From the NCBI RefSeq assembly GCF_002571385.2, contig NW_019217911.1, positions 62,001 to 126,000 on the forward strand: a stretch of 64,000 nt of DNA, given 5' to 3'. Both the position numbers and the translations under genes were made by a program. The notes under the pieces are model-generated. The model was not told the DNA's origin and did no database searches. It saw nothing but the letters and a program-made list of their open reading frames with translations. The first letter of the stretch is position 1. Each line of letters starts with the position of its first letter. Origin of the DNA: Stylophora pistillata (Eukaryota). Of the stretch, positions 11,901-60,497 are shown piece by piece.

Positions 11901-14900
11901 TCATAGAAACGTTTCTTGTTCATAACTTGACCCTGCAAAATTAGGACATAAGCAAATTCCTGTCTTTCAATCAGCCTTGCAGTAGGGTACATGATTATTG
12001 TGTATTATAAATGACCTTCATGTAAATATCACAAGTACTCTATTGCTTTTTACAGTAACTCTAACATTGCTTTTTACATTCTCTCTGATAGGTATGCAAT
12101 TCTGTCACAAATGCTGAAATCTGATTGGCTACTCTACCCACCATCTATTACATGATTGATGGTGAGAAGAGTGAGTTTCCTGACAGTGTGCAATTAAAAA
12201 AAAAAAATTGAGGAAAAAGATGCAACCTTTCTTTTTGTTAGATTTAGAAGAAAAAGAAGCTTCATTTTACAACCATTAGAATTAGTTCATGAGCTCGAGA
12301 TTTCTTTGCTTGATGATTGATTCCAGCCATGCACTCATAACCTATCATGCAATAGAAATCTCAAGCTCATAATTTGATTGTTCAATAGCAATCAGACATT
12401 GTCCTGTGCATAAATACAATGAGTTGGTTTGTTCAGGCTTAGGTCTCTATTTTTTTTTCTATGGATTATCAACTGAACCATTAATTAGTAGCACAATATA
12501 ACTTCTAGCATTTTACTCACCCCTTCCTCTGGACAGATAAGATGCAGGATTACCTCCACCACCTTTAATGCCGCATCACGGAAAGGAACCAGGATCAAAA
12601 TCTTGGGTCTTGTAAGTCCTTGATCACGGAGTTCACTGTAAAAGGAAGTTGCAATGAGCGAGAATGTCTGAATTATTAGCAACAGAGAATATAGTGACTA
12701 AAACAGGTAATGCAACAAGTCACCTAACTCTAGAGGGAACTATTGTCAGAACTGACACCAATCTGAGTGTTTTTTTTTCTTACAGGCAGTCAGAATTAAA
12801 CAAGTTAAGTTATACTAACTATAAAATAGGAAAAGATACTGGACAATTGCAAGAAAAAAAAAGATTGAGGTCTGCACATTTTCCTAATCAAGACTGATTA
12901 TCTGCTACGGCACTTGAACATTAGACAACACTTTGGTGGTTAAATGGGATGTTGGAGTTAAGCCTGGCATCCTGGGTTACCAGCAAGCAAGGGAGTAAGT
13001 TCTCAACAAAAATTCATTAACCAAGGGATGCCACTGGCCTGCCTCAATGCTTTCCTTCCCCTATGATAAAAATCTATCTCTCATTTATTCCCTGGTAGTC
13101 ATGTTGCAACAGGAAATAAATTTATGATATGCAAGAAAGAAGACAGGTACCTTTGCTGAAATGACTTGGTAGAATGACTAATTTCTTACCCAATTTCATT
13201 CCCGTCTTTCCAGGACTGAACAATTTTTGCAGTATTCTTCGTCACTCTTGACCGTGTCCTATTGGGCAATATAAAAAATACTTCACTGTAATTTACTTGA
13301 CATGTACTGCTTTTAGGAGAAGTGTTCCTCTGAGGGAATATGATTTTTATCTCAGCCATTTAACCTGCAGCATTGGAGATTTCAATGAGTAACCTGAGCA
13401 ACAAAACATTTTCCACACGTGTTCAAAATTCACCAATGGCTGCTACTTTTTTGACCTTAATGCTTGATGCAAGAGTGATATTGTAAGGAGAAATTAGATG
13501 CTAAAGTTTATGAACCCCAACTTGTGGTTCATAAACTGCTTCAGCTCTGGGCCAGGTTGTTCAAAGGTGGGTTAAGATAACCCTGGGTTAGTGTGAAATT
13601 TGACTTCAGATCTGAAAGCTTCAAAATAAAATTAATTTTAATTCCATTTGCCTACAATTTGATGATTTAATGCTCTGAAAAGAATTAGAAAAGTTATCCT
13701 AAAAAGACTTTTGAACAGAGAAATATAGAAACCCGGACTAAAATTTAACCCTGGGTTAACGCTAATTGGCCTTCAAACTGGCCCTGGTTATGCAAATGAA
13801 AAAAAAACAACAACAATTATTCTAGTAAAAAATGCGTCTTGTGTTGCTCCTTAGGATTCCAAAAACTTCCCAAGAGATGGAGAGAAGATGGGAGACTTTT
13901 TCTTTGGCTAGGATGCTGGCTGAGTAAGATCCAAAATGCCGGGATCCAAATAAGAATTTGTGGCACAATGGAAGAAAATTTCAGATGGTTAGGTTTACTG
14001 TGATTCTCATATATCACAAACATGCCCAGGATGTAGCCACAGGCACAGCCTAGTACAATGTTGAGGCATTTTTGAACATTTATTGTTAAATCACAATCTG
14101 TACTAGGTGTTGACTCCCACTTCCCTACAAAGCTAAGGTGAGTTCAACTTCACAGGCAAGCCAGCAGTTCTCTCATCAACGAAAATATTTTATGTGAACA
14201 TCATCTGCAGTGGCGGCAAAGAAACCTGTGACATAACAACTCCGTTTTTCTACCAACTATGTCCAACAGAAATTTTGCACCAGTCTGATTTGCATTTCAC
14301 GCTGACCCATCACAGTTGTGCTTGGGACTGAGTAGAACAGATTGCCAACGTTATCAATTAGCACTAGGGACTATGTCCCAGGTATGTCTGTAGCATATGA
14401 GAATCAGGCTCTCTGCAGTGTTGTTTACAGGAATCTCTCAAGAGGTTTAAAGAGGGTAACAGGGTTTGTACCATTTTTCAGAAACAAATTTCAAGGACTT
14501 TCCTACAACTTAGATTGATTTTTCCAGGGCTCCAAATTTTTCCCTCAAACCCTTTCCTTCTCCAGATTCTAAAGTCAATTCTTTTACAGTCTACACACAT
14601 TTCTTAGGATGTAAATTCTGAAAACTTTATTGCTTGAATCAGGCAGATTCCTGGGACTTTCCAGGACCTGTAGTCTTTTTCCAGGACTTTCCACTTCTAG
14701 AAAACATCAAAATAAAATTCCAGGACTTTCCAGGTTTTCCAGGACTTGTAGAAACTCTGGTTTAAGTTTGTAAAGAAACTGTGGTGCTGTGTCAGTGAAG
14801 GGTAAAACAAGGTCACATAGTTTTAGAAACTGCATTAACATCGTAAATTAGCCACCCTAAAGGGTTTCTAATGCTGACATTTCAAGCATTAGCAATTTGT

Positions 14901-17900
14901 CAGGTTGAGGTTTAAATTTCTTAAACCTAATAGAGGAAAAAACAAAAAAATTCCAAAATTGTTTACAATCTGTTTCTCGTGGCTTTCTCAGTGTAACATA
15001 AACTGTTATCATAAACTTTTTATGGCACCTTCCTACTGTTACAATGTTTCTTAGAAAAAAAAAAACAAGTGATAGGAAGGAGTCAAGTACTGTTAAATAA
15101 AACACTTGATGTAAGATAGCTTGATATTTATCCCCAACAGTACAAACTCTCATTGGTTACTTTGAGGTCACACAACAATGCAACTGTTTCTCGTCAAGTC
15201 TCTGAACTGGAAACACTGCAGGATCTATAATAAGAATGTAACAGCAAAATATATTGACTGATAACCTTCTAAAATATTCATGTTTATCTCTGCTTTGCCT
15301 TTGCTTTGAGAGACATTGAAGTTCCTCATTGAAAAAGTAAGTGGGAATTCCTCACAAGAAATTATGTGCTGATTTGTTTTAAGATTTAGAGTCATTCATG
15401 TTCATCTGAATGAATTTTGAGTTCAATGGGGTAGGATAAAGGTTGACTTCAGAGTTTTAGAGCTTGGTATCACCAATAATGCTCCCAAAACTGGAGTCCA
15501 ACAAAACTGTAAAAAAGAAAAAAAAAACCAGCAAGAAAAGTTGCTGCACCAAGAACAAACAACGAAAAAATAGTGCTACATACATACATACATACATATA
15601 TAGATACATTTTATTACATGGATTCATATTTACAGGTTTTCATGCACCCACAATTAGCTCAAGCACTATTTTAGGTGGGTGAAACTTAGTAAAACTATTA
15701 CAAACAGTGCTAGCCTTCAATTAACTACCACAGTTCTTCAAAATTATTAAAACTTTGCAGCTTTTTCTCTAACATATTTACAAACTAGTCTTAGTTAACA
15801 AACAGCTTTCTCAAGTTAAACATCAAAGAGACAGTATGCTTACCACTAACATATTAAGTAAGACAACGTCAAATTCTTGTTCCAGACTAAGCTCTAGATT
15901 AATTGCTTAGTGCAGATGGTGCCACCATGATCACAGTTATTGCATTCTGACTTACTGTGCAACCCTTTCACTCCTCGAAGTCATTGACATATAACTTCTT
16001 TCCATAATATCCATGCATTTTCCAGCAAATTTGTAATCATAGAGATTACTCAAACTTGTAAGGAAATTGCTATCTTTATACAACACCAAATTCTCAAAAC
16101 TCGTTTACCAAGAAATTTGTAGCAGCTATAGTGGACAATTAACAACCAGATCTTTGGAGTAAAAGGGCTGAGGCTTCCTCAACATCATAAAATTAATAAA
16201 TAGAAATAATAAATTTAAATAATAAAGAAATAACTAAACCTTGATTATCTTGTATGCCCTTGTAAAGCCAAGGATGGCTTTTGATTCCCTTAGCTCTTAA
16301 AAACGCTGCTTAAAAAAAAAGCTGAAGACATCAAAAGTATTTGGAAAAGTTCCTTAAACTGTTTCACTACCTAAAGTGACCTGTTGATGAATTCTCTTAA
16401 CCACATTAGGCACTTGAATAAAAAGAAAATTGTTGTCCAGCAGGGCCAGGTTGTTCAAAGCTGGGTTAAGGCTTTTTGTCAACTATCTGATGATTGAATA
16501 TTCTAAAAAGAATAGAGATTTTTTTAGAAAGGGTTTTGAACAGATAAATAGTGCTGATCAGCCTTTGAACAACTGGGACCAAGAAAATATCACACATATT
16601 CATTAATGGTGGAGCTTGCAGAGCATAGCCCCATAATTATACAGAATGGTAGTAGTAACCCATCAAGCTGAAAAAATTTGGACTTATGACTGTACGCGTG
16701 TCTGTACAAGGTGCTACTTTTAGCATGCAAGGTCAACTGTACTGTGGGCACACCAACACCACGGCTTTGTCCAATAGCCCAGTGGTCAGTGCACTAAGCT
16801 CTGAGTCGAAGGACCCAGGTTCTAGTCCTGGCTGGGGCAAGGCATGGTGCCCTTGAAATGTGCAGGAAAAAAAAAATGTGAGCTCCACTTTTAGGCTTTG
16901 CTAAATCCAGGGGCGGATCCAGGAATTTTTGATTGGGGGGTCCAAACTTTGGTTCAGAAAGGACTGTTGGACCGAGGCAAATTACTTCTCCCCCACACTC
17001 CCCTCCCACCAGTCGTGGTTGCACATTATATTCCTTGGCCGCTTACTATTTACTTGGATTCATTAAAAAATCAGCCAGTTAAAAAGTGATATACGATCCT
17101 GTCGATGTAAGAATTTCAGTCTCAAATTTGTAAGTGTCAGGTCTGATAGGAGGTCCGGATCCCCCGGACCCTAACCCTGGATCCGCCACTGAAATCTATA
17201 TATTATATTAAGAAATAAAAGTTTTTAACTTACCAAAATTGTCTTTCAGATCTTACAGATGAAAGGGTTAATTGCATGTCAAACAGTCTACCAAAAAGTT
17301 GCCTAAGATTTTTAGGAGATTGGTTAAAATGACTTAATTGACTCCCTCGCCTAATTTACATTGTTTAGGCTTATAGGCAAGCCTAATCAATTTTCCCCTC
17401 AAAATAGGCTTTTACCAGAATCTCTACTTCACTTTCTTTACTAGAATTTTTTAACTCCTTTTCTTCACCTCTTTTCACTAGAAAATCCCATAATATGGGA
17501 TGAAAAACAATTAAAGAGTGTTACAGTTGTTGGGAGAACAACCTTCAATGCAAACTTAGTCCCAAAAACAGTTGAAAGTAAACAATAAAGAACAATCATG
17601 TACAGAGATAAGAATTTCCCTAACTTTTTCAAATGTTTTCTCACAGGCTCTAATTTGTCACATGCAATATCAAAGAGGTCCTTGGGGATATACTGTTTGT
17701 ATCCTTTAGTGTATTCTTTCATTTCATCTCGATGATGCTTTTTACAGACATCAAACAACACACGTAAAAGGTGGAAATAAGTGTTGGTAAATGAGCTGTA
17801 CAATGTCCAAATGCAATGGCAAATAAGTACATTTATGGCCACAGATGACAAAGTTTCAATGAGAAACTTCATACCAGTAATTAACAAAATGTTGGAAGCA

Positions 17901-20900
17901 ATCTGCAGTGATAAGGAGCAGCAGTATGAAAAATATATCACCCAAACAATAGAAAGACAAAGAAATACAAACTCAAAAAAGAAAAACACTGCTTTTACAA
18001 GCTTATTCTTAAACCATTCTATTCTTGAACCCCAAAATCTTAACCAGTCAAAGGTATACCAACAACCTCCAAAACAAAAAGAAACAATTGGTAGCGAAAC
18101 AATGGAGTCTACAACAGTCATAATTATGAATAGAGCTAATTTAAGTAAAGACAATAGAACCTTTCCCACAAAGGAAACTAGATTTCTACATACATCTCTC
18201 CAGTTTCTAGAGAGAGAACTTCCTTCAAGAATTTCAGGTTCACCTTCCCAATTCCCAGAGAATAAATTTACTACTAGAATTTCAGATGCATCTTTCCAGT
18301 TTCTATCCAAAGTTTCAAAACCAAATGATTGAAAATTCTGTTGGATGTTATCTGGAATACTACTATCCTTGGAAGAATCTGATGGATCTATTTCATTACA
18401 CTCATCACAAGCATGCCAGTAGTTGCTGGGGGACAAGGCTTGAATAACCTCACAAGTTTTAAGAAAGCATGTTATGTGTTTCCTATGAATGAAACTGGGA
18501 ACCCTGGTTGAGGAAGAGGGCTTAAAGATCACACATAACATTCGCACGCCAAAACAAAATGCACAAGCACATAGGCCTGGAAGTTTTTTGAAGGCAAAGG
18601 AAAACACTGACTCGATCAGGTATGGTGGGGACAGATTGGTGAAAGCTTGAGAGAACAGTCTTGGTACCCCAAGGACAAAAACATCTGTACATAGCAAAAC
18701 ACCTACGTGAGACATGATCAAAATAAAAATCTCAACAATATGATAACATATTCTTTTCCATTTTTTTCCAGTGGGTTTGGCCTTGTGCAAGAAGATACAA
18801 TTTGCAATTAAGCTTCTTATACCTATAGGGCTAGCTGGTTCACCAACATCAATCACATCAAGACAAAAGCCATCCATCTCGCTTTCAGCTGCAAAGTAAG
18901 TTAATTGTTGAGAAGAAGCAGCTGCCTTGTCCTTGGAGCCTTGTTCCACAGCAGAGGGTCCAGGGGAGTTATCTTCTGTAGACATAAGCCAGCTACCGGC
19001 ACAAATTTTCTCAACACAAATTTCCTCAACACAAATTCCTATATCGTCGTGTTCTCGTGGTTGCTTTTTTGTATTCTGGTAACTTGGGCTCTCGCCTTTA
19101 GCATGATAGTCACTTTCCTCCGGCTGCTTGCCCAAATGATTTTCACGTCTTAATTTTTTCAGAGTGGGACAAAACAAAGTTAACACTTTAGGACTCCATA
19201 AGATATACGCTATCCCAATTAGGAAGATTAAGACGTAATACAATGATGTGAGCGTAAGTTCGTGGTCTTCGGACACATTGCCATTCGAAAAACCGGCAGA
19301 AAGATGGTAGTTTGTAGCCAAATAAACGTAACCAAAGAAAGGCATATTCCAGCTTTGATTGTCAAAAGAAATGTGGAAACGAAGCGAGCGTAGAACGTTG
19401 AGTCCATTTGAAACAGCCATTACAGTTTGGTTTAACGCGGGTTGTAGAAGACAGGAGACATTTCGTATGAAAGTTTCGTTGATTTCCTCTGTCTGAAATG
19501 TTTGTTCTAAAGCTGCCAGGGTGATAAACCGGACTAATCTGAATCCATGATCAAAATAGTGTTCTTTACTTACAGGTAAAACGAAGACATAACCCGTTGT
19601 GGTCGTATTATGAATGTTGTTAGCCACGCACTTTTGATGGACAAGGTAGCTTATGTTAAGCCGGATCTCCATCTTGCGAGCGGTCGGGGAAGTTTTACCT
19701 GTACTCGTAGAAAAACCATTCGCAGCGTGTACCATCTATCGACGAGTAAACTTCCTTGACGTTTTGCAGCAAAACTAACACGGTAATGACCATACACAAC
19801 ATCTTGACTATGGTCTCAGGAGTGAATCAAATTCTCTTCCGCTTTCGACTGGGAAGGAGGGTGTCGCCGAATCTAGACAGAGTCCGCTGTCGCTGGCTAA
19901 CTCGATATCAATCGAAGAGGACTGTAATCTATCTTCTTTTCCAAGATTTATTCTCAACGTACACCGCCGACGTTCTAACAATTTTTTTTAACAATTCCAA
20001 CAATTCCAACGAAACAGTTCAGACGATTCTATCATATTCTCGCTATGTAAACGTTCAAACGTTCAAGTAAATCTAATGTAATTACAATCTACTGTGGTAT
20101 TCATAGTCTGCCTTGCGTGACTACAAGCCAGTGTTTTTCCAACAGTCACGAGTACAGTAAAATCCCAAGCCAACCTATTGTAATATGTCTATATTTCATT
20201 CTTTCTACCCAATAGCAAGTTTCCCATTCCTTATTAGGCGGACTAAACACCTGCTATAATTTATACATCAAAATTATGCAATAAAAATATGGGTCAACGT
20301 GAGAGCTAAAGTCCATCGTACCTCTTTACCTGGTCCATTAATGAGATTTAGCATAAGGACGAAACGTCATTTCAGAACGGGAGAGAGTAGCCTGCGAACA
20401 GGCTCCCGGCTTGGAGGTGCACAACGGCGCGTCTGATTGAACGGGGAGCCTGTGCGCAGGCTAGGGAGAACGCGGAGAATAGTCTGGACACGACTCCATT
20501 TCGATTTCCGGTGTTATCGTTGCAGTTCCCCAACAAGTTCAGGACGTCATTTCGCTAGTTTTCGCATCCCGATCAGAACGCCTGGGATTTACGTAAATCG
20601 TGCACTTGTAAACGAGATAATATTGTTGGGAAGTACTTCAAAACTCATTTCCAGGGTAATTAGGTCCATTTCTTTGATTAATTTACCGCTATTTCTGCTG
20701 GATTCCCGTAAGAAAATCGAAACATAAACGTTAGCAAGCGATCCTAGATTTCAGGACTCAGTTCGCTTTTAAGTGAGCGAGGCTTTAGGCAATAAAAGGG
20801 CTCCTTTAATACATCTCTTTAAGCCTACATGAAAACTCTAAGGAAGATGCTGATAAATCAATTTCGTCGTAAATTAATTTATCATATCAAACAATACCGC

Positions 20901-23900
20901 GCGCTCCTAATCACCTGATTACGTGTTTTATGTGCCGTACAGGATGCGCAGTGTAATACTGAGAAATCCTGTGCAATGAGTGGTGACGTTCCGGGCGAAA
21001 CGAAAAAAAAAAAACCATTATTTTTGAAGGAGAGGGTAAATAAAGAGCGGAAATAAAAGAAGAAGAAAACAAACAAACAAACAAAAAAACAAAACTTGTA
21101 ACCGCTGGGATTGACCCCAGGTCCTCTCGTTCTAGAGGAGAGGCGCTATCTGGTCCCAAGTTTTAGAGTGTTTCTAGGCGATAACATTAACGTGTACCTG
21201 TGAGTAGACTTCGTCGATAAAACATGACNGATCCTAGATTTCAGGACTCAGTTCGCTTTTAAGTGAGCGAGGCTTTAGGCAATAAAAGGGCTCCTTTAAT
21301 ACATCTCTTTAAGCCTTCATGAAAACTCTAAGGAAGGGATGCTGATAAATTAATTTCGTCGTAAATTAATTTATCATATCAAACAATACCGCGCGCTCCT
21401 AATCACCTGATTACGTGTTTTATGTGCCGTACAGGATGCGCAGTGTAATACTGAGAAATCCTGTGCAATGAGTGGTGACGTTCCGGGCGAAACGAAAAAA
21501 AAAAAACCATTATTTTTGAAGGAGAGGGTAAATAAAGAGCGGAAATAAAAGAAGAAGAAAACAAACAAACAAACAAAAAAACAAAACTTGTAACCGCTGG
21601 GATTGACCCCAGGTCCTCTCGTTCTAGAGGAGAGGCGCTATCTGGTCCCAAGTTTTAGAGTGTTTCTAGGCGATAACATTAACGTGTACCTGTGAGTAGA
21701 CTTCGTCGATAAAACATGACCTTTCTTTCCCAAAAGGTAAAATACAAAGTCTTTTTGATCATGAACAATGATACCAAACACTGGTGTTTATGATTACATA
21801 ATTCATGGGATTAATTTAATAATAAATTTGAGTTTCCTACAATCTTGCACATCTGCAAGTTTGTTTGTTTAGCATAACGCACTCACTTGATTTGTATAAC
21901 TTCAGTATAAAAAAAAAGAAAAAAAAAAAAGGAATAAAGGTACCTCCTGAGGGGTACAAATTAGGTTAACATAGCAGCTAACTCATGACACTGGCCATGT
22001 CAAACATGACAGTCCTTTCAGAACCTGAACAAGCTCTTGAACAACATGCAGGGCAACAAATGTGTCTTTTTGAGAGTACAAGGATAGGCTTTGAAGAAGT
22101 TACACAACAGACATATTATCATAATAAAAATAATTTTAAGGGGTTTGCTGCAAACTGTTTCTTTTACTCTCTTTTGGGTCTCATATTTCCTTCAATATCT
22201 AATGAGTGATCCCTCCAGGAAAAGTTAGTTTTGCAATCTCTCAAGTCTCCATCTTTCCCTCAAAAAATTGTAAAAACAAACTAGGAAACTGTTTGCCACT
22301 GAGTCAGAATTAAGTTTATGATGTCCTTATACTCCTTTATTTTACATGGTACTATTAGATTTGAACAATCTTCTTCTGTAACGTTTCCAAACTAAAAAGT
22401 AGGTATATAAAATATTTCCATTCTTACTTCAAGATGTGATTAACAGCATGTAGACAATATAGCCTTCTTATTTCATCACCATTCTGAAAGGTGCGGCTTG
22501 AGAAGTAAACATCCTGTAAGAAAGAAGAACATATCAAAATCTAAAAAGGCTCAAGAATTCTCTCTCCTGTAAGCTCCATTTTTCCACATTCTTATTCTCT
22601 TACAAAAAAATTTAAAAGTGAAAAAGGGAGCTCTAATACTGATATTCTGCAGGTCCTTGGTAATTTATGCAAACATTTCAATAAATGTCATAATCATAAT
22701 TTTTGGTATTCAGTGGTCAAATTTCTAGCAGCTGTATCTTGTTCCACTGCAAACCTTTATCTATATTCTCATTTGTTATTTACAGTGCATCTACTGATCA
22801 GAAGGAAAGGCCAATTAAAAATTAAAAAGCAAGCTGGGAGCAGAACTGAAACAATATATGCCAACATTTTCAAATCTAACCACTGAAACAACAGATACAA
22901 AACAATGAAATTTCAATTTTTTTATTGGCTAAACCACCGTCTATTTATCACTTCCCCATTCTGACAGAATATAGGAGTCATTTTGTTTTGGTCATTTCTT
23001 GAAAAACAAAGTACAATTCAACTGAAAAAGGACAGAGAAATGTGTTCAAATTACTGTATATGTCAAATCCAAAAACTTTGCACCAAGCCCTCTATTTTTT
23101 GACAAGCCTTTCACTAACCTTATATGCATTGATATGATAAAAAAGATCTTGCTGAAGTGGAGAAAACAACCCTGAAAAAAGAACTCTAAATTTAAAATCA
23201 AGTGATTTCAAAAGTTTTCATAATAACAATAGTTCATCTTTATTGAGGATGCCAACATCACAAAAAAGTGGTTTACAGAGGGGTCCTCGAAAGGTAACTA
23301 CATAAAATATAATTACTTAAAAATAAAAAGAATAAAATACATATCGAAAAATATGANACCCAAAAATTATAAAGAAATCTACAATTAAAGGTACATTTGT
23401 TAAAGTCAACCCCATTCTCTCACAGCCCCACCCCTCTAGTAAAGCCCCAATCAACAGGATGGAAACAAAGAGTTCTCCTAGAGGTCATTGTGACTCACAA
23501 AATTATCATCACCAATTGGCTATTATGAGCTTGAAGGTTACATGTAAAATACTTCTGAAAGATGAAATGTGTTTAAAATAATTTATTACAAATGGTGTAC
23601 CTTCAGAGTTAGGTATCTTATTGATTGCCTGCCATGAAAGAGCAAGTCTGGACTTTATCTGGAGAAGTAAATTAGGTTTATCACTAAGGCAGCTATAATT
23701 TAATTTAATGATTAAAAATACTAGCAAAACTGTTTTAAGTGGTCACCCACAGGAAATGGTAGTGTGACCAATTAATACAGGTTGAATGCCTAATGTAGGG
23801 GTATTATAAAAAAAAAATTGTAAAAGATGTCATTTCCTGCCATAATGGCACACTTCATGTACAAAAACTCACTCAAAACTACCACTAAAATTAATTGCAG

Positions 23901-49000: not shown

Positions 49001-52000
49001 CCTTTTATATGCTCATTAATTAGCAGCCCTTTCTTCTGACTAGGGTGGAGGCATGGTGGCCTCATGGTTGGTGCACTCGACTCCGGATCGAGTGGTCCAG
49101 GTTCGAGCCCCGGCCAGGACATTGTGTTGTGTTCTTAGGCAAGACACTTTACTCTCACAGTGCCTCTCTTCACCCAGGTGTATAAATGGGTACCAGCAAT
49201 TTAATGCTGGGGGTAACCCTGTGATGGACTGGCATCCCACATCCAGGGGGGGTAGAAATACTCCTAGTCGCTTCATGCTACAGAAACCGGAGTTAGGCAC
49301 TGGCCTAACCGGCCACTAGGCTTGTAAACAGACTTTACCTCTTCTTACTAGGTGTAAATAGGCATCAAGTAGTAAGCCACTATCATCACAATTTAAAGGA
49401 GAGAGGGCAGAGTTAATATGCCAGGATTCCAGACAAAGACACCAGTGGTTATTGGAGCGAAACAAAAAATAAGTCATAAAAGTTGACTTTCTTCTTTACC
49501 TTCATAGTGATAGTCATACATTGGGTCATCATTGTGTGTGATAAATTTCTGACATAGCAGCAATTTTACTGCATCCTGGTGAGATCAATTACAAAGGAAC
49601 AATAAAGGTTATGAACAATCCCACTCAATAACAAAAAAGCTCTCAGAGGATCTAAGAATAGCACCAATAAACTTACAAATTTGGCATGTAAACACCTTCT
49701 CATTGCAAAATGAGATCATCCAAGTTGGGGAGGTCCTGGAAAGGATTGTTGTCAACAAAAATGGCTGATATCTAAAAAAACACCTGTGGCATTCTTCATC
49801 AGCATCTAGAGTACACACATCTTTGATAGCGCAAGTGTTTTTTTAAAAAAAGTCTACTGAGTGTTGTTATTCCTGTACCTACGTTTAGCCAAAGAGTTGT
49901 GTTTTCTTCATACCTTAACATTTCCATTTGCTTTATGAAGAATGTGCAAGGCATATTCCTTGTTTGATCCACCACCAACTATTGCAACAGAGCAGGCCAT
50001 ATCCAGAAAGGATTCAACTGAAATTTAAACAAGAAAAAATGATGAGATTTGATTTGTAGTTCTCCCTTCTTGCTTTCAAAAATGATTTCAAAAATTTATG
50101 AGAATGTTATTTTATTTAGAGAACCACTCCTGACTGTTAAGTTTGTTTACTCTAATCACTTGTTTGCTTATCAATGTAAGAAATTTGTTGTGAAAAATAA
50201 CATGATCATCACTCATGGGAGCTGAGAGGTTAATGCCACAAAATATGGGAGAGATTTGGTTCATTCTGCTCTGAACACAAGCACTTCCTTTTTCATACAA
50301 AAACCGCTGAACAACAAAACTTTTTCTGTCAACAGAAATTACTGAATCTGAATAGCTGAGGTTTTTGGGCAACAAAATGAAGAGTGAAAAAGCAGAGCTG
50401 TGTGAAGTGGTACATAAGAACTTACTTTCCTCCCGTCTCATACGTTTCTTTTCATCAAAAGGTTTCCAGCACAGTGTTGCCTTGTGAACATCGTGGATTG
50501 CTCCTTTTTTGTCACCTTGGAAGAAAATGGGAGGAGAGGATTAGCTTTTTGATGCTGAGCAAAACATTCCAAGCAAAAAGAGGATAGATGCATGGGTTAC
50601 ACCAAGCCATCTTCCTTCTTTTTCCTTGGGTTGATATGCTGTAATTCTACAAGACAAGAACATTGCTTTTTCACCTAAATGGGATGCTATACTCTTTCTG
50701 GCTACCCTTCAGCATTTTGTTATGTTTCACTGACAATTAGCTGATACCCATGCATACTCCCAGACAGAGAGAGAGAGAGAGTGGGGTGTCTTTCCCAGGA
50801 ATACTGCACTTTAACCCAATCAGGGCTTGATCATCAACCCCCCAATCGAGAGTCCATTCCACTAATCCCAAAGCCAATGCAAATTCTGTAATTTAGTATG
50901 ACAAATTAGTTGAAAATTTACCTATTCCTAACATGCATTACTCTCTCCCTTAAAGTTCTTTAATTTCGTTATAAATTCTCATTACTTGCACGCTTTAAAA
51001 CTTTAATTTCAGACAGTACGAAGATGTCAAGAGCCTATTCCTGTAGAATAATACACTCACCAGCCAAAGGAGGCACCTCAGCTTGGAACTGTGGACCAAC
51101 ATTTATTTTCCTGTTGACAGAAATACATTGTAAGTTAATTCTATGTTGCGCACTTCCATTTTATGTAATTCTCTTATTCTCAGCAGTATCAATGTTGACA
51201 CCATCCACCAAAGATGGACAATTTTCTTCTAGGTAAGTGGTACAAAATCATCAAGAACAATTTTTTGGGGTTCGTTTGTTCTCTGAAGGTGATGGCATAT
51301 CACAGTTAAAACAATTTGGGGAAATCAAAATAAAACTGTGAAATACTTACGGCTCAGGGAATTGACTGGCTTCTTCTCCATCAAAGCTGCCTAAAATTGT
51401 GAAGAAAAGTTGCTCAATTAAAAGCACATGGTACAATAAAATTCAAATTCAAGCAACATTTCTTGCAAAGAATAAAAGTGCTTTGTATTCTCCCTCTAAA
51501 TGTAATTTAGCATGTAATACTACCATGATACAAAGCTGTTAGAAGACAGTTTGAAGGTAAGGCAAAGAATCTATTTGGCAGTGAGCTTGTCACAGTGGAG
51601 TGGGGGAGGGGGGAGGAGGAGGGGGGGACTTGTAAGCATTAAACATCAAATAAATGAAAACCTCTGCTTAGCAAAAAAACATAATGGCTTACTTCTATGG
51701 CCACTAAGAAGAAGCCTGCTTGGTGTCATAGGCAGCTGCAAGGATGCACTCGGTCGTGGCGTCAGATTTCCCAAGGAGGGAACATGATATATACTACGAG
51801 GACTGAGCATTGGAGGAGGTGTATACGGAGGTGAACATGGTTGACTGCGATTCATTGGAGAGCCTGGACGATTAGGAAAGTAGGTCGTGCTTGCCGATGG
51901 TGGGATAGTCAAAGGCTCTGGACGTGGCCTTTGTTTCCGCCTTGGGGTGACTATCTCGGCAGGATTTCTAAACACGGCCTGGTTCCCTTTGTCTTGTGCA

Positions 52001-55000
52001 TTGTTATTGTCTTCAAGCTTGATGTGAGCAAGGGGTGGACCACTGACATCTCTCCTCTCTGCGATACCCACTTCTGATAATCGTTGCCTCTTCTCCGCTG
52101 GTTGGCCATCATTGTTTTTACTGTTTCTGAACTCGGTTCCTCTCGAGAGTGTCTCCACATGGTTTAAATCATTGTCGCTGGTAACAGAGCCATTACTCTC
52201 TGGTGTCATTGTATGTCCATAAAGTGATTTGTTGTTACCCATGGATGAAGTTGAGTTATATGCATTAGCTGTTTCATCGTAGCGCACCTAACAAATGACA
52301 CGAACGATGTTAGAATGCGCTTTAACTTATATTTGCACCTTCAGTGGTAAATTCAAGAATTTTCAAGTTTTCGATTTTATCCAACTGCACTGAGAGATGT
52401 GCAAGATGCTATTATGTTTTCAAGACTTTAAAAGTAGATACAAATGGCCTGGTGATCATAGAGAAGAAGACAATGCAATGACACATAAATCCAAATGGAA
52501 TATTATTATTTGTGTGACAACAGTGTTGTGCAAAGACATCAGCGTATAAATATGGTTTTTGTGCATAATTTTCCCATTTAAGAGACATTCCTAATTTGCC
52601 CAGTTTCCCTAACAGTAATGCAGAAGGATAAAGCAGACTTTTTATGGGAAACCTTGCAATAATAAAATCAAACCAATTATTTTCAACGCCTACTTTTTAA
52701 GTTTTACCACATGATCATAAACATTAATCAAAAGCTCCATTCTCAGTTTAGGTAAAAAAATAAGTTCCATCCATGCACAGCGCAATTTGGTTTTAATTAC
52801 AATTGATGATGATGAAATTAAAGGATAAGAACAAACTGTTTGGCTCAATATCTACGATTTCAGTCACACAATAATAAATTGCCTTACTTACAATATGTCT
52901 GAGTTCACCTTTAGATCTGTCAATATTCAAAATAAAAGAAAGAGTAGTTTTTGCCCCTACAGGTTTTTGTTTTGTTTTGTTTTGTTTTGTCTTCAAAACT
53001 GTTAACTTGTTTCCTTTAAAGGTTTTTCTTGGAGATAATACATCACCATAAAAATTCAGACTCCGAGGTAGGCACAGAAGGGCAAAATGAAAATAAATAT
53101 ATTTGGAGACAGCTTCCTCACAAAGATATAAAAATAGAAAACAGAAATAAATTGTGTTATGCTGTAGAATAAAAACTAAAGATCAAAGATCAAAGATAAA
53201 TACTGTGGTGAAGTGAAAATGGTAAAATGGAACACAGATAGAACCCATGTTATCATCAACAGTTGTAATCTTTGCTAACCTAAGATATTGACTCAGGAAC
53301 TACTAATTACTGAACCTAAAAACTGGTGAATGTTTGGTAAAGTGACTGATCATAATGCTTTTAGCAATAAGTTGAGAATAAGCAGCAAATCAAGAGAAAT
53401 TCAGAGCCTCAGATACATGCCTTAACCATTCTGTTTCTCTGAAAACAGAAAGCTATGCAGAGAGTTTGCACTTTGGAATCTGTAGAAAAGGGAGTGTGGG
53501 TTGATTTCCATTAGGTTATGGAGCAAAAATGAACTGCTACAAACTGCTGGTGATGTTGCAACTGATTTACAAACAGTGGACATGGATAAGAAAGCTCTCT
53601 TCCACGAAAGCAAGAGACTCTAGAAAACACTTGGTCACATGATCAATCAGCCTTGAAGAATATTTCATTCAAGTTCTGGCTAAAATGCAAATTTGCGTGG
53701 TTTGAATAGGCCACAGAAGACAAACACAAGTCAATCAAGTGTCAGACAAGCAGCCAACCAGCCAATCACAAGTGGGAAGCCACTCTAGTGTACAGGTGAC
53801 TTGTCAGGAAAGCGATAACCTAAGAAACAGCTGCCTGCATCTCAAAACAATTGAGCTCAAAATGAATATTGATGGCATTAAGCTTAAATCTATTTGGTTT
53901 TCAAATTTAAACCCTCCTATCTAAATAATGTAAGGTGGAAGCCAAAACAGTGACAAAAATGGAATCAAAGAAGTAACTGCCAAGAGATAAATTGGGTGCT
54001 GGAAGAGAATACCAAGCAGAATAGAACATGCCTGAAATTGAGCCAAAAGGTGTCATCTTTACACAAATGGACTTCAAATACTTATAATTAAATATTCATT
54101 TCAATCTTCATTGAAAAGCAACCAGGCGTGAAACAATATAGGTCTGCACAAATTGTGCTCCCTCTATATAGTAAACAAGCCTGCCTGGAATCACATTAGG
54201 TCTTTAATCTGACAATATTATGAACTATGCACACTTTTCTTCCCATAATATTTATAAAAAATATTTGTCTTAAAGAAAAAAAAAAAAAAAGAACATTTAT
54301 ACAAAGAATGACTACTAACCATCTTCTTTTGTAAAAGAAAAAAGACAATAGTATTGAAAGGACAAGAAAATGTATTCATTGATCATTCACCAAAGTAAAC
54401 AGTCAGGTCATATATGTCATGGATCCTTTTTTAAGATTGAGGAAAGAAGTAAATTATAATGAAAACACTACAGCAGATAACAATTAAAGACCTGATGTAG
54501 AGTACACCAAAGAGAACTAAGTTATACATTGTAATTTTTTTTAGTGTGCCAATTCCCATCACTGACTATCTCAAAATGTCACCATTTGAAGATCATTAGA
54601 CAAAGTCATTTTAGTGAGAACACAAGTAAATTTGTCTGGCCAAGAAACTAATCACTGGTATGGTAACAAATCTTTACCAGCTCAACAACTGATGGAGCAT
54701 GTACCAAATCACAAAAAATACAGCAACGACTCAAAGTTTGGTACATTTCTAGTGCTGATTTTCATGGAATGAAGTAATAAACCCTCTAACTCTCAGAAAT
54801 AATTAATTAATGTCACTTCGATCTCCTGACAATTCCAATATGTTATCTTGCAAACAGATTATGACAACAGACAATTCAGTTATCAGCTAAAGGGTGTCAC
54901 TTTTGAAATTATGACCAAATTCTCCTGTCTAAGTAGCCAGGGGGCTCCACACTAACTTTTCAACTTACTAGCCAAGTGGCTAGTGACATCTTACTGTAGA

Positions 55001-58000
55001 TGTCTTTAGATGTTACAACAATTTTGTCCTGTTTACTAGCTAGGCAAACTGGCTGGTGGAAATTGAAAACCACTAGCCAAAACTGAATTTCTACTAGTCT
55101 GTAGCTAGTGGGCTACCGTTAGTGTCGAGCCCTGAGTAAGCAGGGAGATTTATAAGTTAGACCATAGGAGTGAAAGGGCTAAAAGCCGTGCTTATTGTTA
55201 GTTAATTGCTGGTCTGTACTCGACCTGAGTGACCCAGCTGGAGCTCATCCCAGGTTTGCTTAGCTTGAAGTGACTAGGAGTATTACTACTTCTCCCTCCC
55301 CTGGATGGGATGTTACTCCATCGCAGGGTTACCCCCCAGCATTTCATCAGGGTTCCCTGACAATTTGGCATTTCTCACTTCTACTCTTTGGTTGAGAGAG
55401 GCATTGTGAGAGTGAACTGTTTTGCCAGAGAACATAACACAATGACCAGCCAGGCCTTGAACCCAGATCTCTCGACCCAGAGTCCTGTGCACTGACCAAT
55501 GGCACACTGTGTCTCTTCACTGCAGGTGCTTCCTTAAAAATCATCAAGTTTCCCCCAAAATTTGCATGTATTACTCCTTTACTCTCGCGTGGAGAAAGGT
55601 ATAGTGCAAGTGAAGCATTTTACCCACGAACACAACACAATGTCCTTGCCAGAGGAGGAACCCACACCTCTTGATGCAGAGACCAGTGCAGTGACCTCTA
55701 GGTCACCACTGGGCCATATAGTCGCAGAAATTTATTACATGAGAGAGTACTCACCTGTTGCCACTGTGTTCCAGAAGGATGCACTCCATAGAAACTGTCA
55801 CCAGTGTATCTAAATTGTCCCATTTCTTTTGCTGTGGCTACAGCAACAGCAGTAGGATCTGTAGGAGTTCCGACATGTCTTCCACTTTGTTGTTTGTAGT
55901 ATGCCACCTGCATGGTATCTGTTAGCCGGGAATCTTGGGAAGGTGATGGGGTTGCCTGTGTTGACACCCCAACAGTCTTTGTCATCTCCGTCGGAGTGTC
56001 TGCATCGTTCATCATTCTTTGACGGGATTCATTGACCAACCCACTGGCTTGCTGGGAAGCAACTGGAACTTGGAATACTGTTGAGGGAAAGTGATATTGG
56101 TACACAAACCGTGGGTCCTGAGCATACAATGCTGTCGGATACCACTGCGGGTAAGGTGTTCCATCTGGGTGGTACACCACATAGGGCTGCTGTTGAAACC
56201 TTTCTTGCCACAATTCATTGCCATTTCGAGCACCATGCTGTCCTTTGACACGATCTGCTGCCTGCTTGAGCAAGTCAACTGCTGAATGAGGTAACCCAGT
56301 ATCAGTAGCTTTCTCGGGTACACTTTGCTCTGCAGAGTTGCCAAGCCCATCCTCAGATGTCGTTGAGCTGAAGCTGTCACTATTCCTTTCCCTTTCTCTC
56401 AAGCCATTCAATGCTGCTCCCTCCAGAGGTAAATCAATAGGTCTTTCACGAGGGGCACTAGGTTCATGGGTGCTTCCAGGTGTTGATCTACCTGAGCTCC
56501 TACCACTATCATACCCACTAACTTGAAGGTGCTCATTGCGAACCTTTGTCAACTTTGGTAAATTTCTTGGTGACCCCACGTGCTCATTACTTCCAGCTGG
56601 TGATAGTTTATCATTGCAGTTTAAGCTTGGACTTCCAGAACCAGGTGGTCTAGAATCATTGACGTTGTTCCCATTGGCTGAGTGATGATTCTCCAAGTGT
56701 CGGCGTAGAGACCGCATGTCACAATAGCTCTTATCACAATCTGTGAACCTACATTCATATGGTTTTTTGTCCCGATGAGTTACCATGTGACCATTTCTGA
56801 AATTGCAAAAAATCAAAGTTAATTTTGATTTCTGGTTCATATTTTATGAACAATTTTTTGTTGTGAATAATAAAATGCAGAGCTGCAAAACCCAAACCTT
56901 GTTTGTAATCTATTTTTAATTGATCTTCTGCAGTCAGAATAATCAATAATCATTGTGGTTTGGGTAAATTTCACAAGTAGTTTTCTCCTTCAGTAAACCA
57001 TTACATTAAGAGTTTCTTAGATATATATCAGGCCATTCTCTGTTATCAAAAGAAGAAAGTGCTCAAAGTAAGCAACATTTGACTTTGATCTCTAAGTTCA
57101 CACCGGATTTGACCCTGAAGATCCAATTTCAGTTATTTGTTTACTTGAATGTCCTTTAAACATCTGTGCAAATTCTGCTCACAAGACAATATTTTATGGC
57201 AGATATTCAAATCAGGCCACAAATCCGATGAGCACAAAAGTGTGTGTTTCACCGAGATCTGGTACCATGTTGAACGCCAACATCAAATTAAGCCAATCTA
57301 CCCAAACAGGAAATTGCCAAATTCACTCACAAATGATCCTGTCTTTTGAATCCTTTTCCACAGGTTGAGCACACGTATCTTCTCTCATCGCTGTGAGTAA
57401 GTTTGTGCTTTGCAAGGGCACTAGATGATCCAAATGTTTTTCCACATTGCTCACACTTGATCTCTGGCTTTGAAGCCCCTGTAGTGGGCTTTGGTTTGCC
57501 TTTTAATTTACTTTGAGCAAGTTTCTTGCTGTCGGGATCTTCACCGGGAGTAGGACTACTACTGTCACTCTTAATGGCTGGAGAATTTGCTGATCTCCGT
57601 TCTTCCAAACTCGATGCTGGAGACACAGCAGAATGAACAGGGCTTACATAAGGCTTGGCGGTATCTGTGGAATGTCAAAAATGAATTTACAATTCACAGG
57701 CTGGGTTTCACATCAAAACATGCATCAATTAAGATCCATTGCTTCCTCAAGTAATACATTGTCAGTCCACTGGGGGACAAGATTAGTTTCTAGGCACGGC
57801 ACGGAGTAGCTAAAATATTTACAGAATGTTATCATGCATTTTTAATGATTCAAGCCCTGTAAATAAGATCTCACTAACAAACACTTAAATCACAGATCTT
57901 TCATTGGAAAAAATAAAGTGTATCAAATAGCCATTTTTTAAGTGAGAAGCTCCCTCAGTTGTGGTTTCGCTTTATAAAAGCTAAGCTTAAAAGCAACCCC

Positions 58001-60379
58001 ACAATTCCATTACTGCACATGAATACAATTTCCTTCATTCAGCACTACCTCTCAATAGCTTATTAACTGGAACCATAGAAACTCCCAAATAATTTTTTTC
58101 GCTTTAAGGACAACCATGACACACAAATTATCAACATTTGATTCAATCAGAATAAAATTATGCTTCTTTTTTTGAACCAATCTGTTTTTTTTTCACTGCC
58201 TTTAATTACAAAATTCACCCCCAAATGTTTGCATTTCTTGAGAAAGCTTATCAAGAAGAGAATGCTTTCAAAAATTTCCAGATCAATGCATGACTCCACA
58301 AAGAGTTCTTAACGCAAGCATCTGCTCTCAAGCAAACTTCCACTAGTCATATTTCACATCATGCAATAACTACAATAAATCATGGACTTATCCTGGAAAC
58401 AATATATAACTTGACAATGAAGGGTAAATATGCAGATTCTCAGACCCAATAATGAACATACATTTCATTATGTATCACAATTTGTGATGAATAACCTTTT
58501 GTGACAATCAGGTTTTCAACATGTCTAGAATTCCTGCATCTAAAAATAAATGTACTTTTGAAAGGGAGATTTTTTTCCCGGCACAAGAATGTATTCTATG
58601 TCAGATACTTACAGAAATGTTGATTTAAACCTTCCCAAAGCATTTTGCAAAAAAGATTATTCAAAAAAATACTTTCAGTCAAAATCTGTCAGAATACAGA
58701 CAGGGGTACTTTGTGGTTTGCATATAGGTACATAAAACTACTTAGAACTGACTCAAATTATTGCATGCACAGAGGCTTCCAAATTAGACCCGTAATATTA
58801 CTACTGGGCTTAGAGCTGTCAAATCGCCTGACAATACAAGGGAGGCAGGGATCTAAGTGCTAAATGAACCATGCAAAGACTCTTCAGAAAACAATGCAAC
58901 AATGTTAGTTGAAGAGGTGTTAAAAAAAAAGACACAGTCCTAATTAGTCTGCTCTGAGAACAAGTGAAACAGCTTACGTCATCAGGAAAAGGAGCTGTAT
59001 TGGCATTGCAAAAAGCCAAGTTCAATATTGGGTTAAAACAATACCTTTAGCCTATATTAGAGAAGATTCAATTTGATCTGCAGACACAATGGCTAAAAGC
59101 ATTTTTGACACCTACTTAGCAGCTTGTCTTGACCTCGCTGGTTTACCACATCAGTGTTTGAAGCAGCTGAACTGGGAAGTTGTGACTGTGTCTGAGATGC
59201 TGATGCATCAGAAGGGATGTTATTCAATGGCACAAATGAAGGCACGGCAGCAAAGTTTTCATAACGACCCTGATCACCCCCTACAGAGAGCCCCTGATAG
59301 TACATTCCATCGATCACTCGAACAGGTCCAAGTCCAGGTACCATAGCATAGCCTCCTGCATGGACAAGTCGTCTGTCCATAAACTGCAAGCCTGGAGCTC
59401 CATGCTGCAAATTTCCATAAACGTTTCCTTCTCCAGGGTTCACTGTACTTGTTGCCACAGGTACTTGTTGCTCCGGCCTTCCCGAAACATAATCCATGTG
59501 CTGAACAGGAAATCCCTTGAGCTCATTCATGCTAGTGTGCACAAAATGCTCCCTCTTTAGCACATTAGCACTGTTTCCAGCATTTCCACCGGCCATTGCT
59601 ACCATATGTGGATATGCTCCAGCCGGCATGTAATAAACAGGAAGCGCTTTCGTATCTCCGTGCACGTTCCTCAAAATCTCCCCGCCAGCGTTCTGTGATT
59701 TGGCATTTCCTTTGTCTTCCAGTTTGTTGACATCCTCGTGGTGTGCATTATAATTATAATACAGCGCACGCGAGGAGTGAGATTGAACCGCATTCACGTT
59801 CTCATCATTTCCATCAGAAATTTTCTCGTTGCATCGAAGCTCGCTGCTTCTTATCTTGCCCGAATCTTGTGAATCGTTGTCAGAGTCCGAATCGACTTCC
59901 TGTTGTTCTTTATTGTTCATTCTTTTTATTATAACGCTAGCGCGATCGCTTTCTTGTTGTTGACGATCGTTCGGAGTTGTGGCATGCGCTGGAATAGATG
60001 ACGAATTTCCGTGATTTAACTGAATCCAGTGAGTTCGAGGGACTTCATAAATATTATTCCCTTCCATAGCACGCCTCCCTGCATCATCGACGTTCTTTTT
60101 AGCAAGATGGCTCGCTTCTGTTTCCTGGTATTCCTTTTGCGTGTTAAGCTTCAACGCATCGCCACTTTTAGCATTTACCTGAGCAATTTCATCTTCGCTC
60201 ATCATCTGATCTTCGATATTCGCCGTTTCGGCGAGTCTTGAGGGTTCTGCGTTCATGACTGGCTTTTTGATTAGCAGCCGAGAGGAATCGTCCTCCGGAG
60301 TTTCAACGTATAATGACGGAGCTGGTTCTTCTGTGCTTTCAGCTTCGGGGCTACCACACGGAAAAGTCTCAAAAGACAT
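46072..60379 (-). CDS. TRERF1: TRERF1/ZNF541/MIDEAS-family C2H2 zinc finger - ELM2 - SANT transcriptional co-regulator (15 coding exons, about 1406 aa)
   Basis: Exons 60379-59116, 57664-57331, 56796-55755, 52287-51693, 51390-51351, 51110-51061, 50515-50426, 50017-49914, 49575-49500, 48830-48742, 48441-48331, 47985-47911, 47599-47547, 46734-46543, 46177-46072. Three N-terminal C2H2 fingers (incl. [12 protein letters not shown]); [10 protein letters not shown]; ELM2 ([22 protein letters not shown]); SANT (CIEFYYHWK); fingers SRQALNGH and [12 protein letters not shown]. The first donor (59116) is the least certain. Likely co-orthologue of the three vertebrate paralogues. Confidence 0.88.
47290..47503 (-). 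mobile_element. tRNA-derived SINE with V-domain-like core
   Basis: On the minus strand: A-box GCGCAGTGG, B-box-like GGTTTGATTC, core GGTTTTCTCCAGGTCCTCTGGTTTTCCTCCC. Confidence 0.65.
49044..49341 (+). mobile_element. Full-length tRNA-derived CORE-like SINE
   Basis: A-box TGGCCTCATGG, B-box GGTTCGAGCC, core GGCAAGACACTTTACTCTCACAGTGCCTC...TGTATAAATGGG, TTTACC tail; decayed reverse copies at about 48545-48700, 50660-50870, 55215-55515 and 55540-55710. Confidence 0.8.
54938..55133. mobile_element. hAT-like MITE nested inside a TTAA/CCC-type repeat
   Basis: CAGGGGGCTCCACACTAAC ... GTTAGTGTCGAGCCCTG; internal ACTAGCC repeats. Confidence 0.6.
55215..55515 (-). mobile_element. CORE-like SINE copy (reverse)
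   Basis: Reverse-complement similarity to 49044-49341. Confidence 0.7.
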
Positions 60380-60497
60380 AACGAGGAAAGTCTGTTCCGA
60401 TAAAATACTGTCCCGCGCGGTTGCTGGTAGTTTTCACAAGCGCCAAGGCAGGGCGCTCAGAACAAAATCGACCGGCGTAATTCACTTTCGCAAGAAG

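What the first reader, a model, noticed from the sequence alone, without database searches (positions are those of the whole stretch)
17383..19802. Same-strand nested orphan membrane-protein gene inside a 9.2-kb UTP25 intron
Seen: UTP25 intron 9 (13259-22427) is far longer than the gene's other introns and holds a 2.3-kb intronless ORF in the same orientation. The product has a glycosylated extracellular region, one TM, a long cytoplasmic insert and then many TM helices, with no family I can name. Established: most nested genes are antisense to the host, so same-strand nesting requires the host transcript to read through the inner poly(A) signal. Inference: a member of an uncharacterised lineage-expanded receptor or channel-like family that retroposed or translocated into a housekeeping gene.
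Basis: partly seen in the sequence, partly recalled or inferred. Interest (0 to 1): 0.7.

Follow-up and report, generated by a model that had tools for sequence, protein, structure and literature searches.

The report
Nested coral membrane gene, broken allele
A real gene for a predicted multi-pass membrane protein from an unstudied coral family sits inside an intron of the housekeeping gene UTP25 and is likely switched on by its own promoter, but the copy in this assembly is broken by two one-letter insertions that other alleles lack at each site.

Summary
The nesting is real: a 756-codon frame (17465-19735, minus strand) lies in UTP25's eighth coding intron (not ninth; about 8.7 kb once an assembly duplication is removed), on the same strand. 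Homologues place the signal peptide and the C-terminal helix in other frames, so this haplotype carries two 1-base insertions. Contigs of two DNA runs hold both this allele and one lacking the extra base, at half depth each in X1: a real heterozygous broken allele, not an assembly error. RNA contigs of two studies cover the ORF and end at an AATAAA at 15615, while UTP25 is spliced across. A CpG island over the 5' end suggests its own promoter. Two raw RNA runs gave no reads. The protein belongs to an old, multi-copy, intronless, often broken stony-coral family with about nine predicted transmembrane helices. A confident model (pLDDT 83.5) matches no solved fold. Most likely it is a cell-surface channel- or transporter-like sensor (inferred). 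Retroposition is unsupported; same-strand single-exon nesting is well known. Verdict: ordinary arrangement, moderately interesting dark family.

The parts
19713..19802 (-). True start and predicted signal peptide of the nested gene (30 codons, frame -3). In this haplotype it runs on to a stop after 35 codons.
   Evidence: translation; tblastn of 8 of 8 homologue N-termini, 43-50% identity
19711..19715 (-). Frameshift 1: one extra base in a 5-base A/T run; polymorphic
   Evidence: X1 has a window-identical contig (depth 49.2) and a contig lacking one base (65.9 of 115.1); X3 11.1 of 24 lack it
17465..19735 (-). 756-aa open frame: ectodomain, TM1, polar insert, multi-TM core. First 7 and last about 15 residues are out of the family frame.
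17513..17515 (-). Frameshift 2: one extra base in a 3-base A/T run; polymorphic
   Evidence: 221-nt window-identical contigs (X1 51.7, X3 12.5) beside 220-nt contigs with 25 other letters and 1 gap (X1 63.6, X3 10)
17383..17514 (-). End of the last TM and conserved C-terminal helix (frame -2), ending at TAG 17383
   Evidence: 7 of 8 homologue C-termini match, 51-65% identity
15610..17382 (-). Inferred 3' UTR of about 1.8 kb with dispersed repeats; AATAAA at 15615-15610
   Evidence: RNA contigs 15613-16470 (X14, depth 19.7) and 15629-16214 (X8, 17.7), background below 15500 of 0-6.4
19000..21720 (.). CpG-rich island (o/e 1.13-1.19) over the 5' end and upstream of the nested gene; inferred own promoter region; includes dispersed repeats
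20740..21720 (.). 489-nt duplication around an N at 21229; most likely an assembly overlap
13259..22427 (-). UTP25 coding intron 8 (host intron)
   Evidence: spliced UTP25 contig in X14
6237..29056 (-). Host gene UTP25, 18 coding exons once the three model exons inside intron 8 are set aside

Best explanation
This is a same-strand, single-exon gene inside UTP25 intron 8 that belongs to an old multi-copy stony-coral family; it is transcribed, likely from its own promoter, and intact alleles would encode a predicted cell-surface channel- or transporter-like sensor, while the assembled haplotype carries two 1-base insertions and is likely non-functional. Shown: nesting, family membership, the frameshifts, alleles lacking each extra base, RNA over the ORF that ends near the AATAAA at 15615, and spliced UTP25. 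Inferred for the gene: an internal unmethylated promoter starts the RNA, and 3'-end formation at about 15600 competes with UTP25 splicing, which usually wins on host transcripts because the nested gene brings no splice sites of its own. The family gains and loses copies (birth and death), and this copy segregates as a polymorphic pseudogene. Inferred for the protein (about 805 aa when in frame): signal peptide, an N-glycosylated ectodomain of about 170 aa, TM1, a variable polar cytoplasmic loop, then about 8 more helices with four conserved acids in or at the membrane segments and a cytoplasmic His/Cys cluster that could bind zinc. My odds for function: ion or solute channel/transporter gated by the ectodomain 0.4, non-conducting receptor 0.3, other 0.3.
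For: Three-frame homology. Both alleles in two DNA runs of two studies; in X1 the two add up to 115, equal to single-copy intron depth of 113-124. At 21 variable codons the other alleles carry the homologues' commonest residue at 11, the window at 5, neither at 5 (counted by eye), as expected if the window allele is decaying. RNA: X14 has a 4,898-nt contig covering 17105-19900 at depth 19.6 and a 3' contig at 19.7, against 0 in three intron bins and 66 for spliced UTP25; X8 has 7-24 against 0-6.4 and 87.5. CpG o/e is 1.13-1.19 at 19000-21228, the same as the UTP25 promoter (1.13), against 0.11-0.23 on both sides; 5' versus 3' ORF p=3e-6; 4 of 5 homologue loci fall the same way from 5' to 3'. 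Coral methylation lies in gene bodies, not promoters (PMC5990304, passages). Family: 17, 36 and 32 hits, named members from Montipora foliosa and Porites lobata, matches on 9 other contigs of this genome, with stops inside 6 of 13 and 12 of 21 matches. AF2 model of a homologue's core: pLDDT 83.5, pTM 0.78. Conserved D79, D248, E283, E322 and H149, C152, C172, C175 in 70-83% of 70 rows.
Against: Phase is not shown: no contig displayed proves that one haplotype lacks both insertions. The frame of the expressed contigs was not displayed (X14: 93 other letters, 32 gap letters). Listed allelic differences are 28 non-synonymous to 6 synonymous, pN/pS 1.3-1.7, not different from neutral (p 0.33-0.68; only 34 listed differences, hundreds of rows not shown), which fits a gene losing constraint. 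2 of 4 RNA runs laid (raw reads X21, X24; 2% and 6% of each run read) had no read on the ORF; X21 also had only 1-2 UTP25 junction reads, and X24 had no UTP25 control. The runs with RNA were picked because they hold the gene. Neither the strand nor the start of the RNA is shown. The CpG island overlaps dispersed repeats, and one of the five comparison loci (L015) does not keep the gradient. No functional evidence exists; the channel-like reading rests on architecture and conserved acids alone, whose 3D clustering I could not inspect.
Confidence: 0.65

Rival explanations
1. The gene is dead or dying in this species: the two insertions lie on different haplotypes or all alleles are unconstrained, and the RNA is residual transcription.
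For: pN/pS 1.3-1.7 among 34 listed differences. Allelic divergence over the ORF is 2-4% in RNA contigs and 11% in one 220-nt block, against 1 letter in 354 for UTP25 exons. Many paralogue matches hold stops. No intact protein of this species came up.
Against: No in-frame stop in 756 codons. Other alleles restore conserved residues more often than they lose them (11 against 5). No stop among the 34 listed differences. X8's expressed contigs share three letters with the X1 contig lacking the second insertion, and their net gaps (-16 and -3) are compatible with lacking the insertions.
Confidence: 0.15
2. The nested RNA is an intronic-polyadenylation isoform of UTP25: transcripts from the UTP25 promoter read into intron 8 and end at the AATAAA at 15615, so the nested gene would also act as a brake on its host.
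For: The X14 contig continues 2,110 nt beyond 19900, and the distance to the exon-8 donor without the duplication, plus a 30-nt overlap, is 2,066 nt. Such interference is described for nested genes (PMC3192792, abstract).
Against: The CpG island argues for an internal promoter. The spliced UTP25 contig in X14 seems to run unbroken across the exon 8/9 joint (968 nt upstream = 896 nt of exons 1-8 plus 72). 37 ATGs lie between the donor and the nested start, so such an RNA would translate the ORF poorly. Where the extra 2,110 nt map was not seen.
Confidence: 0.12
3. The public model PFX26374.1 is right: pieces of the nested ORF are spliced into UTP25 as exons, giving a chimeric 1,110-aa protein.
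For: The model uses GT..AG sites at 19538-18823, 18702-18244 and 15224-15161.
Against: The X14 nested contig runs unspliced through 17105-19900, no joint at these sites was listed, and the length of the UTP25 contig fits direct exon 8/9 splicing (55 joint rows not shown). A TM helix inside UTP25 makes no sense for a nucleolar protein (own knowledge).
Confidence: 0.03
4. The frameshifts are assembly errors and the gene is simply intact.
For: Both are single bases in homopolymer runs.
Against: Contigs identical to the window across both sites exist in X1 (another study, 2024) and across the second site in X3.
Confidence: 0.03
5. The ORF is transposon or viral cargo.
For: It is intronless, dispersed in the genome and flanked by repeats.
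Against: No Pfam domain in the 38 aligned members beyond chance; no BFVD match at E<=0.001; near single-copy DNA depth over the ORF; homologues in Montipora and Porites.
Confidence: 0.02

Closest known systems
Unnamed coral homologues (P0004-P0020; 41-55% identity) and 'uncharacterized' XP_068688509.1 (Montipora foliosa), CAH3179654.1 (Porites lobata)
   Same: Same signal peptide, ectodomain, TM1, SPxG motif, Cys/His cluster, TM core and C-terminal helix; single long frames where DNA was read. The window gene is sister to a 15-row group, support 100 for the 16 (quick tree, 70 of 70 rows, last 330 aa).
   Different: They are full-length in one frame. Whether any of them lies in a UTP25 intron could not be established.
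Distant branch P0072/P0073 carrying Pfam accession PF28478.1 (precomputed label)
   Same: Same order of parts and the C-terminal Y-x2-F..Y / IP-x2-L / P motif; E 1e-8 to the core profile.
   Different: 23% identity over 19% of the query; hhalign probability 28.6. The label is on none of the close homologues. The family's name and function were not available.
Same-strand single-exon nested genes (Drosophila, PMC3814207; mammals, PMC11694760)
   Same: Single-exon gene in an unusually long host intron, same strand, fast-evolving.
   Different: Here the host is a ribosome-biogenesis housekeeping gene of a coral and the nested gene segregates a broken allele.
TMEM16/TMC/OSCA channel superfamily
   Same: Many TM helices with cytoplasmic helical parts; language-model leads at score 0.76 (TMC on 13% and anoctamin on 69% of cluster members).
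   Different: Scores are below the 0.9 lead mark; no Pfam hit; no structural match listed for a confident model. A signal peptide plus N-terminal ectodomain is not typical of that superfamily (own knowledge).
Coral 'dark' gene families (PMC13044578, passages)
   Same: Conserved, lineage-restricted, often membrane-associated (115 of 161 with any assigned feature), expanded by duplication.
   Different: Whether this family is among their orthogroups is unknown; the supplement could not be read.

Membership tests
Same-strand nested gene | Coding region wholly inside one host intron, same strand | tested here: met
Same-strand nested gene | Host mRNA splices across it | tested here: met
   X14 UTP25 contig has 968 nt upstream of exon 9, matching 896 nt of exons 1-8 plus 72; the joint itself lay outside the stretch laid, so this is by length
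Same-strand nested gene | Own transcription start and 3' end | tested here: inconclusive
   3' boundary at AATAAA 15615 and CpG island; no start site or strand data
Polymorphic pseudogene | Disabling mutation present in real haplotypes | tested here: met
   window-identical contigs across the frameshifts in X1 and X3
Polymorphic pseudogene | An intact allele segregates | tested here: inconclusive
   alleles lacking each extra base seen; phase across 2.2 kb not shown
Retrogene | Intron-bearing parent gene | tested here: inconclusive
   no intron-bearing paralogue seen among loci read; genome searches score only the best candidates
Retrogene | Poly(A) remnant and target-site duplication | not tested
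   an old insertion would have lost them; no empty orthologous site available
TMEM16/TMC/OSCA superfamily | Pfam profile match | tested here: not met
   0 of 38 members match these families at E<=1
TMEM16/TMC/OSCA superfamily | Shared ten-helix fold | tested here: inconclusive
   not listed in Foldseek or VIA-align results; Atlas lead 0.76
GPCR (7TM) | Seven-helix bundle fold or profile match | tested here: inconclusive
   top Foldseek rows are GPCR fusions at E>=0.28, TM<=0.14; Smoothened at E 0.099 by sequence; no Pfam hit
PF28478 | Match to the family profile | not testable with these tools
   profile absent from the local library
Transposon or viral ORF | Transposase, RT, integrase or capsid domain | tested here: not met
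   no BFVD match at E<=0.001
Ion channel or transporter (functional class) | Conduction or transport activity | not testable with these tools
   only conserved acids in or at TM segments

The most novel reading that the evidence does not exclude
This is one member of an undescribed superfamily of about nine-helix, ectodomain-gated coral channels or sensors with a fold unlike any solved structure, evolving like immune or self-recognition receptors: many dispersed copies, highly divergent alleles kept by balancing selection (an 11%-divergent block, three alleles at some codons, non-synonymous excess) and a common null allele.
Probability: 0.2. Interest if true: 0.7.

Novelty: new member of a known kind. 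Interest (0 to 1): 0.38.

Why it matters
The arrangement itself is known. What is useful: (1) it exposes a wrong public gene model (PFX26374.1 fuses the nested ORF into UTP25) and a gene that is hidden because the reference haplotype is broken; (2) it outlines a coral membrane-protein family that spans at least three coral genera, folds confidently and matches nothing solved, which is a real target for work on coral sensing, symbiosis or ion handling; (3) if intact and null alleles segregate at one locus, colonies give a natural knockout for testing function.

Tried and rejected
No family or fold found: Pfam, NCBIfam, PDB by sequence (best E 0.0094, a designed protein), Foldseek PDB with two models (no E<=0.001), VIA-align over 48,161 chains (no Z>=8; best 7.5 and 7.2 on short helical stretches), BFVD, Atlas by structure (TM by query <=0.31 on a poor model). 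These absences do not show a new fold, and the ectodomain was never folded well (pLDDT mostly under 50). Homodimer prediction gave no verdict (score 0.00, alignment not used). A search for shorter proteins to catch an intact N-terminus of this species found none among 1,248 candidates. Synteny: the first JGI scan found nothing; the second gave 8 loci found with the sister-clade alignment, of 1.9-6.3 kb, with no UTP25 exon in the flanks; these are too short and not orthologues, so this is no evidence either way. True dN/dS was not computed, for lack of orthologous DNA. Rfam found nothing in 13000-23000. Raw RNA reads at 16900-17280 and 19820-20700 are repeat-derived (83-86% run on unlike) and were not used. 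The careful tree did not finish; the quick tree is used only for placement. Paper searches for PF28478 (0 papers) and UTP25 plus coral (2 unrelated), found no description of this locus or family by listing; only open-licence papers were searched. Earlier scan notes had nothing by sequence or place.
Full report
1. What is there. The window holds a 756-codon stop-to-stop frame at 17465-19735 on the minus strand, far beyond chance (longest frame in 200 shuffles of the intron 166 aa). UTP25 lies on the same strand (Pfam UTP25_NTPase-like). Mapping the public protein P0003 (PFX26374.1, labelled Stylophora pistillata by its source) base by base gives 8 coding exons upstream of the GT..AG intron 13259-22427; the 16 other introns are 160-1,240 nt. 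About 490 nt of the intron are duplicated around a single N at 21229 (487 of 489 identical), most likely an assembly overlap, so the real intron is about 8.68 kb. P0003 itself splices two pieces of the nested ORF and a 64-nt piece into UTP25. I take that to be a prediction artefact (section 3).

2. The gene is broken in this haplotype. Close homologues (41-55% identity) begin with a signal peptide and end in a conserved helix that the 756-aa frame lacks. tblastn finds the N-termini of 8 of 8 homologues at 19802-19713 in frame -3 and the C-termini of 7 of 8 at 17514 to about 17386 in frame -2. They are not assembly errors. In DNA run X1, each site has a contig identical to the window (depth 49.2 and 51.7) and a contig lacking one base (65.9 and 63.6). 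The sums, 115, equal the depth of single-copy intron contigs (113-124), so this is one locus with two alleles. X3, another study and possibly the assembly's own source, shows the same pair at the second site (12.5 and 10), and 11.1 of 24 lack the base at the first. Phase across the 2.2 kb between the sites is not shown. Of 34 listed differences inside the gene (157 and 441 further rows, many in repeats, were not shown), 28 are non-synonymous and 6 synonymous: pN/pS 1.3-1.7, not different from neutral. At the 21 variable codons of the main frame (two changes outside it left out), other alleles carry the homologues' commonest residue at 11, the window at 5, neither at 5. This fits a decaying window allele beside better-preserved ones, but does not exclude relaxed or diversifying selection on all of them.

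3. Expression. I laid 4 RNA runs of 4 studies. In X14 (RNA by guess; it shows spliced UTP25 joints and empty introns) one 4,898-nt contig covers 17105-19900 at depth 19.6 and another 15613-16470 at 19.7. Three intron bins are at 0 and spliced UTP25 is at 66. In X8 (poly(A)) the nested region is at 7-24, intron background 0-6.4 and UTP25 87.5. Coverage ends at an AATAAA on the minus strand at 15615, which gives a 3' UTR of about 1.8 kb. The X14 UTP25 contig has 968 nt upstream of exon 9, matching 896 nt of exons 1-8 plus 72, so the host is spliced straight across (by length) and the fused model is not the main form. Against: raw runs X21 and X24 have no read on the ORF; only 2% and 6% of them were read, and X21 gave just 1-2 UTP25 junction reads. 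Contig depth is a poor measure of level, holders were selected for holding the gene, and strand and start are not shown. Independent support for an own promoter comes from CpG: o/e 1.13-1.19 over 19000-21228, as at the UTP25 promoter (1.13), against 0.11-0.23 in the flanking gene body and in the 3' part of the ORF (Fisher p 3e-6); 4 of 5 homologue loci show the same fall. Methylation in this coral lies in gene bodies and is scarce at promoters (PMC5990304, passages). One open point: the X14 contig runs 2,110 nt past 19900, close to the 2,066 nt that would reach the exon-8 donor, so read-through from UTP25 is not excluded.

4. The family. Searches gave 17 proteins among 6,955 candidates, 36 representatives and 32 among 7,996 scored with a core profile. 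The few named ones are uncharacterised proteins of Montipora foliosa and Porites lobata. In this genome, matches lie on 9 other contigs, some in clusters, with stops inside 6 of 13 and 12 of 21 matches (some may be alignment overrun); counts are lower bounds. Members whose DNA I read are single long frames or frames broken by stops and shifts, without introns. So the family is old, dispersed, intronless and turns over; retroposition of this copy is neither needed nor shown. The 'long insert' is the family's variable loop, 62-191 aa in the 8 of 16 members where my pattern measured it and visibly longer in distant ones. A distant branch carries PF28478, which I could not look up. Synteny in other corals remains untested.

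5. Structure and likely working. A model of homologue P0024's core on 70 sequences is confident (pLDDT 83.5, pTM 0.78); the full-length model of P0007 is weaker (63.1). Averaged hydropathy gives 7 segments in the core, one long enough for two helices; with TM1 that makes about nine. Conserved in 70-83% of rows are four acids in or at these segments (D79, D248, E283, E322, P0024 numbering) and an H-x2-C...C-x2-C cluster that I read as cytoplasmic; the C-terminal Y/F/Y/IP/LF/C/P motif is nearly invariant. No solved or viral structure matches, which does not prove a new fold. From this anatomy I infer a plasma-membrane glycoprotein whose ectodomain senses a ligand and whose helical core passes ions or a solute (0.4), or only signals (0.3). 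No step of this is tested. The window allele would give a 35-aa peptide from the first ATG, or from the second ATG a product without signal peptide and C-terminal helix, most likely inactive.

6. Comparison and verdict. Same-strand nesting is the minority but common: 71.27% of Drosophila nested genes are opposite-strand and 72.53% of same-strand ones are single-exon (PMC3814207, passages); mammals show only a slight bias (PMC11694760, passages); interference through poly(A) sites is described (PMC3192792, abstract and outline). Conserved coral genes of unknown function are often membrane-associated (PMC13044578, passages; its supplement, which may list this family, could not be read). 'Polymorphic pseudogene' is used as defined in PMC11576641 (search listing only). 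My searches showed no paper on this locus or family. It is a new member of known kinds, with residual interest in the unstudied family and the natural null allele: 0.38.

Noticed in passing
window 29409-31280 (+): Single-frame gephyrin-type gene (MoCF_biosynth, MoeA_N, MoeA_C) head-to-head with UTP25 (ATG 29056), sharing a CpG island: a likely bidirectional promoter.
   Followed up: partly
window 32663-34027 (+): Single-frame HSP70-family gene with a hydrophobic N-terminus; looks like HSPA13 (name recalled, not from a call).
   Followed up: no
window 12000-28700: CpG depletion runs about 7 kb downstream of the UTP25 promoter and again about 7 kb downstream of the nested island, then fades below 12000, as if each unit lays down its own gene-body methylation.
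   Followed up: partly
window 18244-19538 and 15161-15224: Public model PFX26374.1 uses these stretches as UTP25 exons; probably a mis-annotation.
   Followed up: yes
G000:C11 about 18600-39100 and C1351 about 23000-32200: Clusters of shorter-loop family members, several broken; C11 and C1351 copies are 81-83% identical. An exon resembling an ABC-transporter C-terminus (label recalled) lies on the other strand in L030.
   Followed up: partly
L023:9127-9477 (-), G000:C138: An acidic frame resembling a piggyBac transposase N-terminus (recalled, untested) just upstream of the 923-aa paralogue.
   Followed up: no
window 17814, 18898, 19471: Three different letters occur across runs at these non-synonymous sites: at least three haplotypes, or contig artefacts; contig differences are unusually rich in transversions.
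   Followed up: partly
window 40003-40872 (-), 49050-49121 (+), 51646-60433 (-): GBBH-like exon, tRNA-Arg(CCG) and exons of a C2H2 zinc-finger gene.
   Followed up: no
window 1237-2073 (+), 35362-35889 (+): Short frames resembling decayed LINE-type retroelement proteins (recalled; no Pfam hit for 35362-35886).
   Followed up: no
L044:4015-9867 (+), G000:C839: A 1,718-aa single frame preceded by an in-frame stop, near a distant family member.
   Followed up: no
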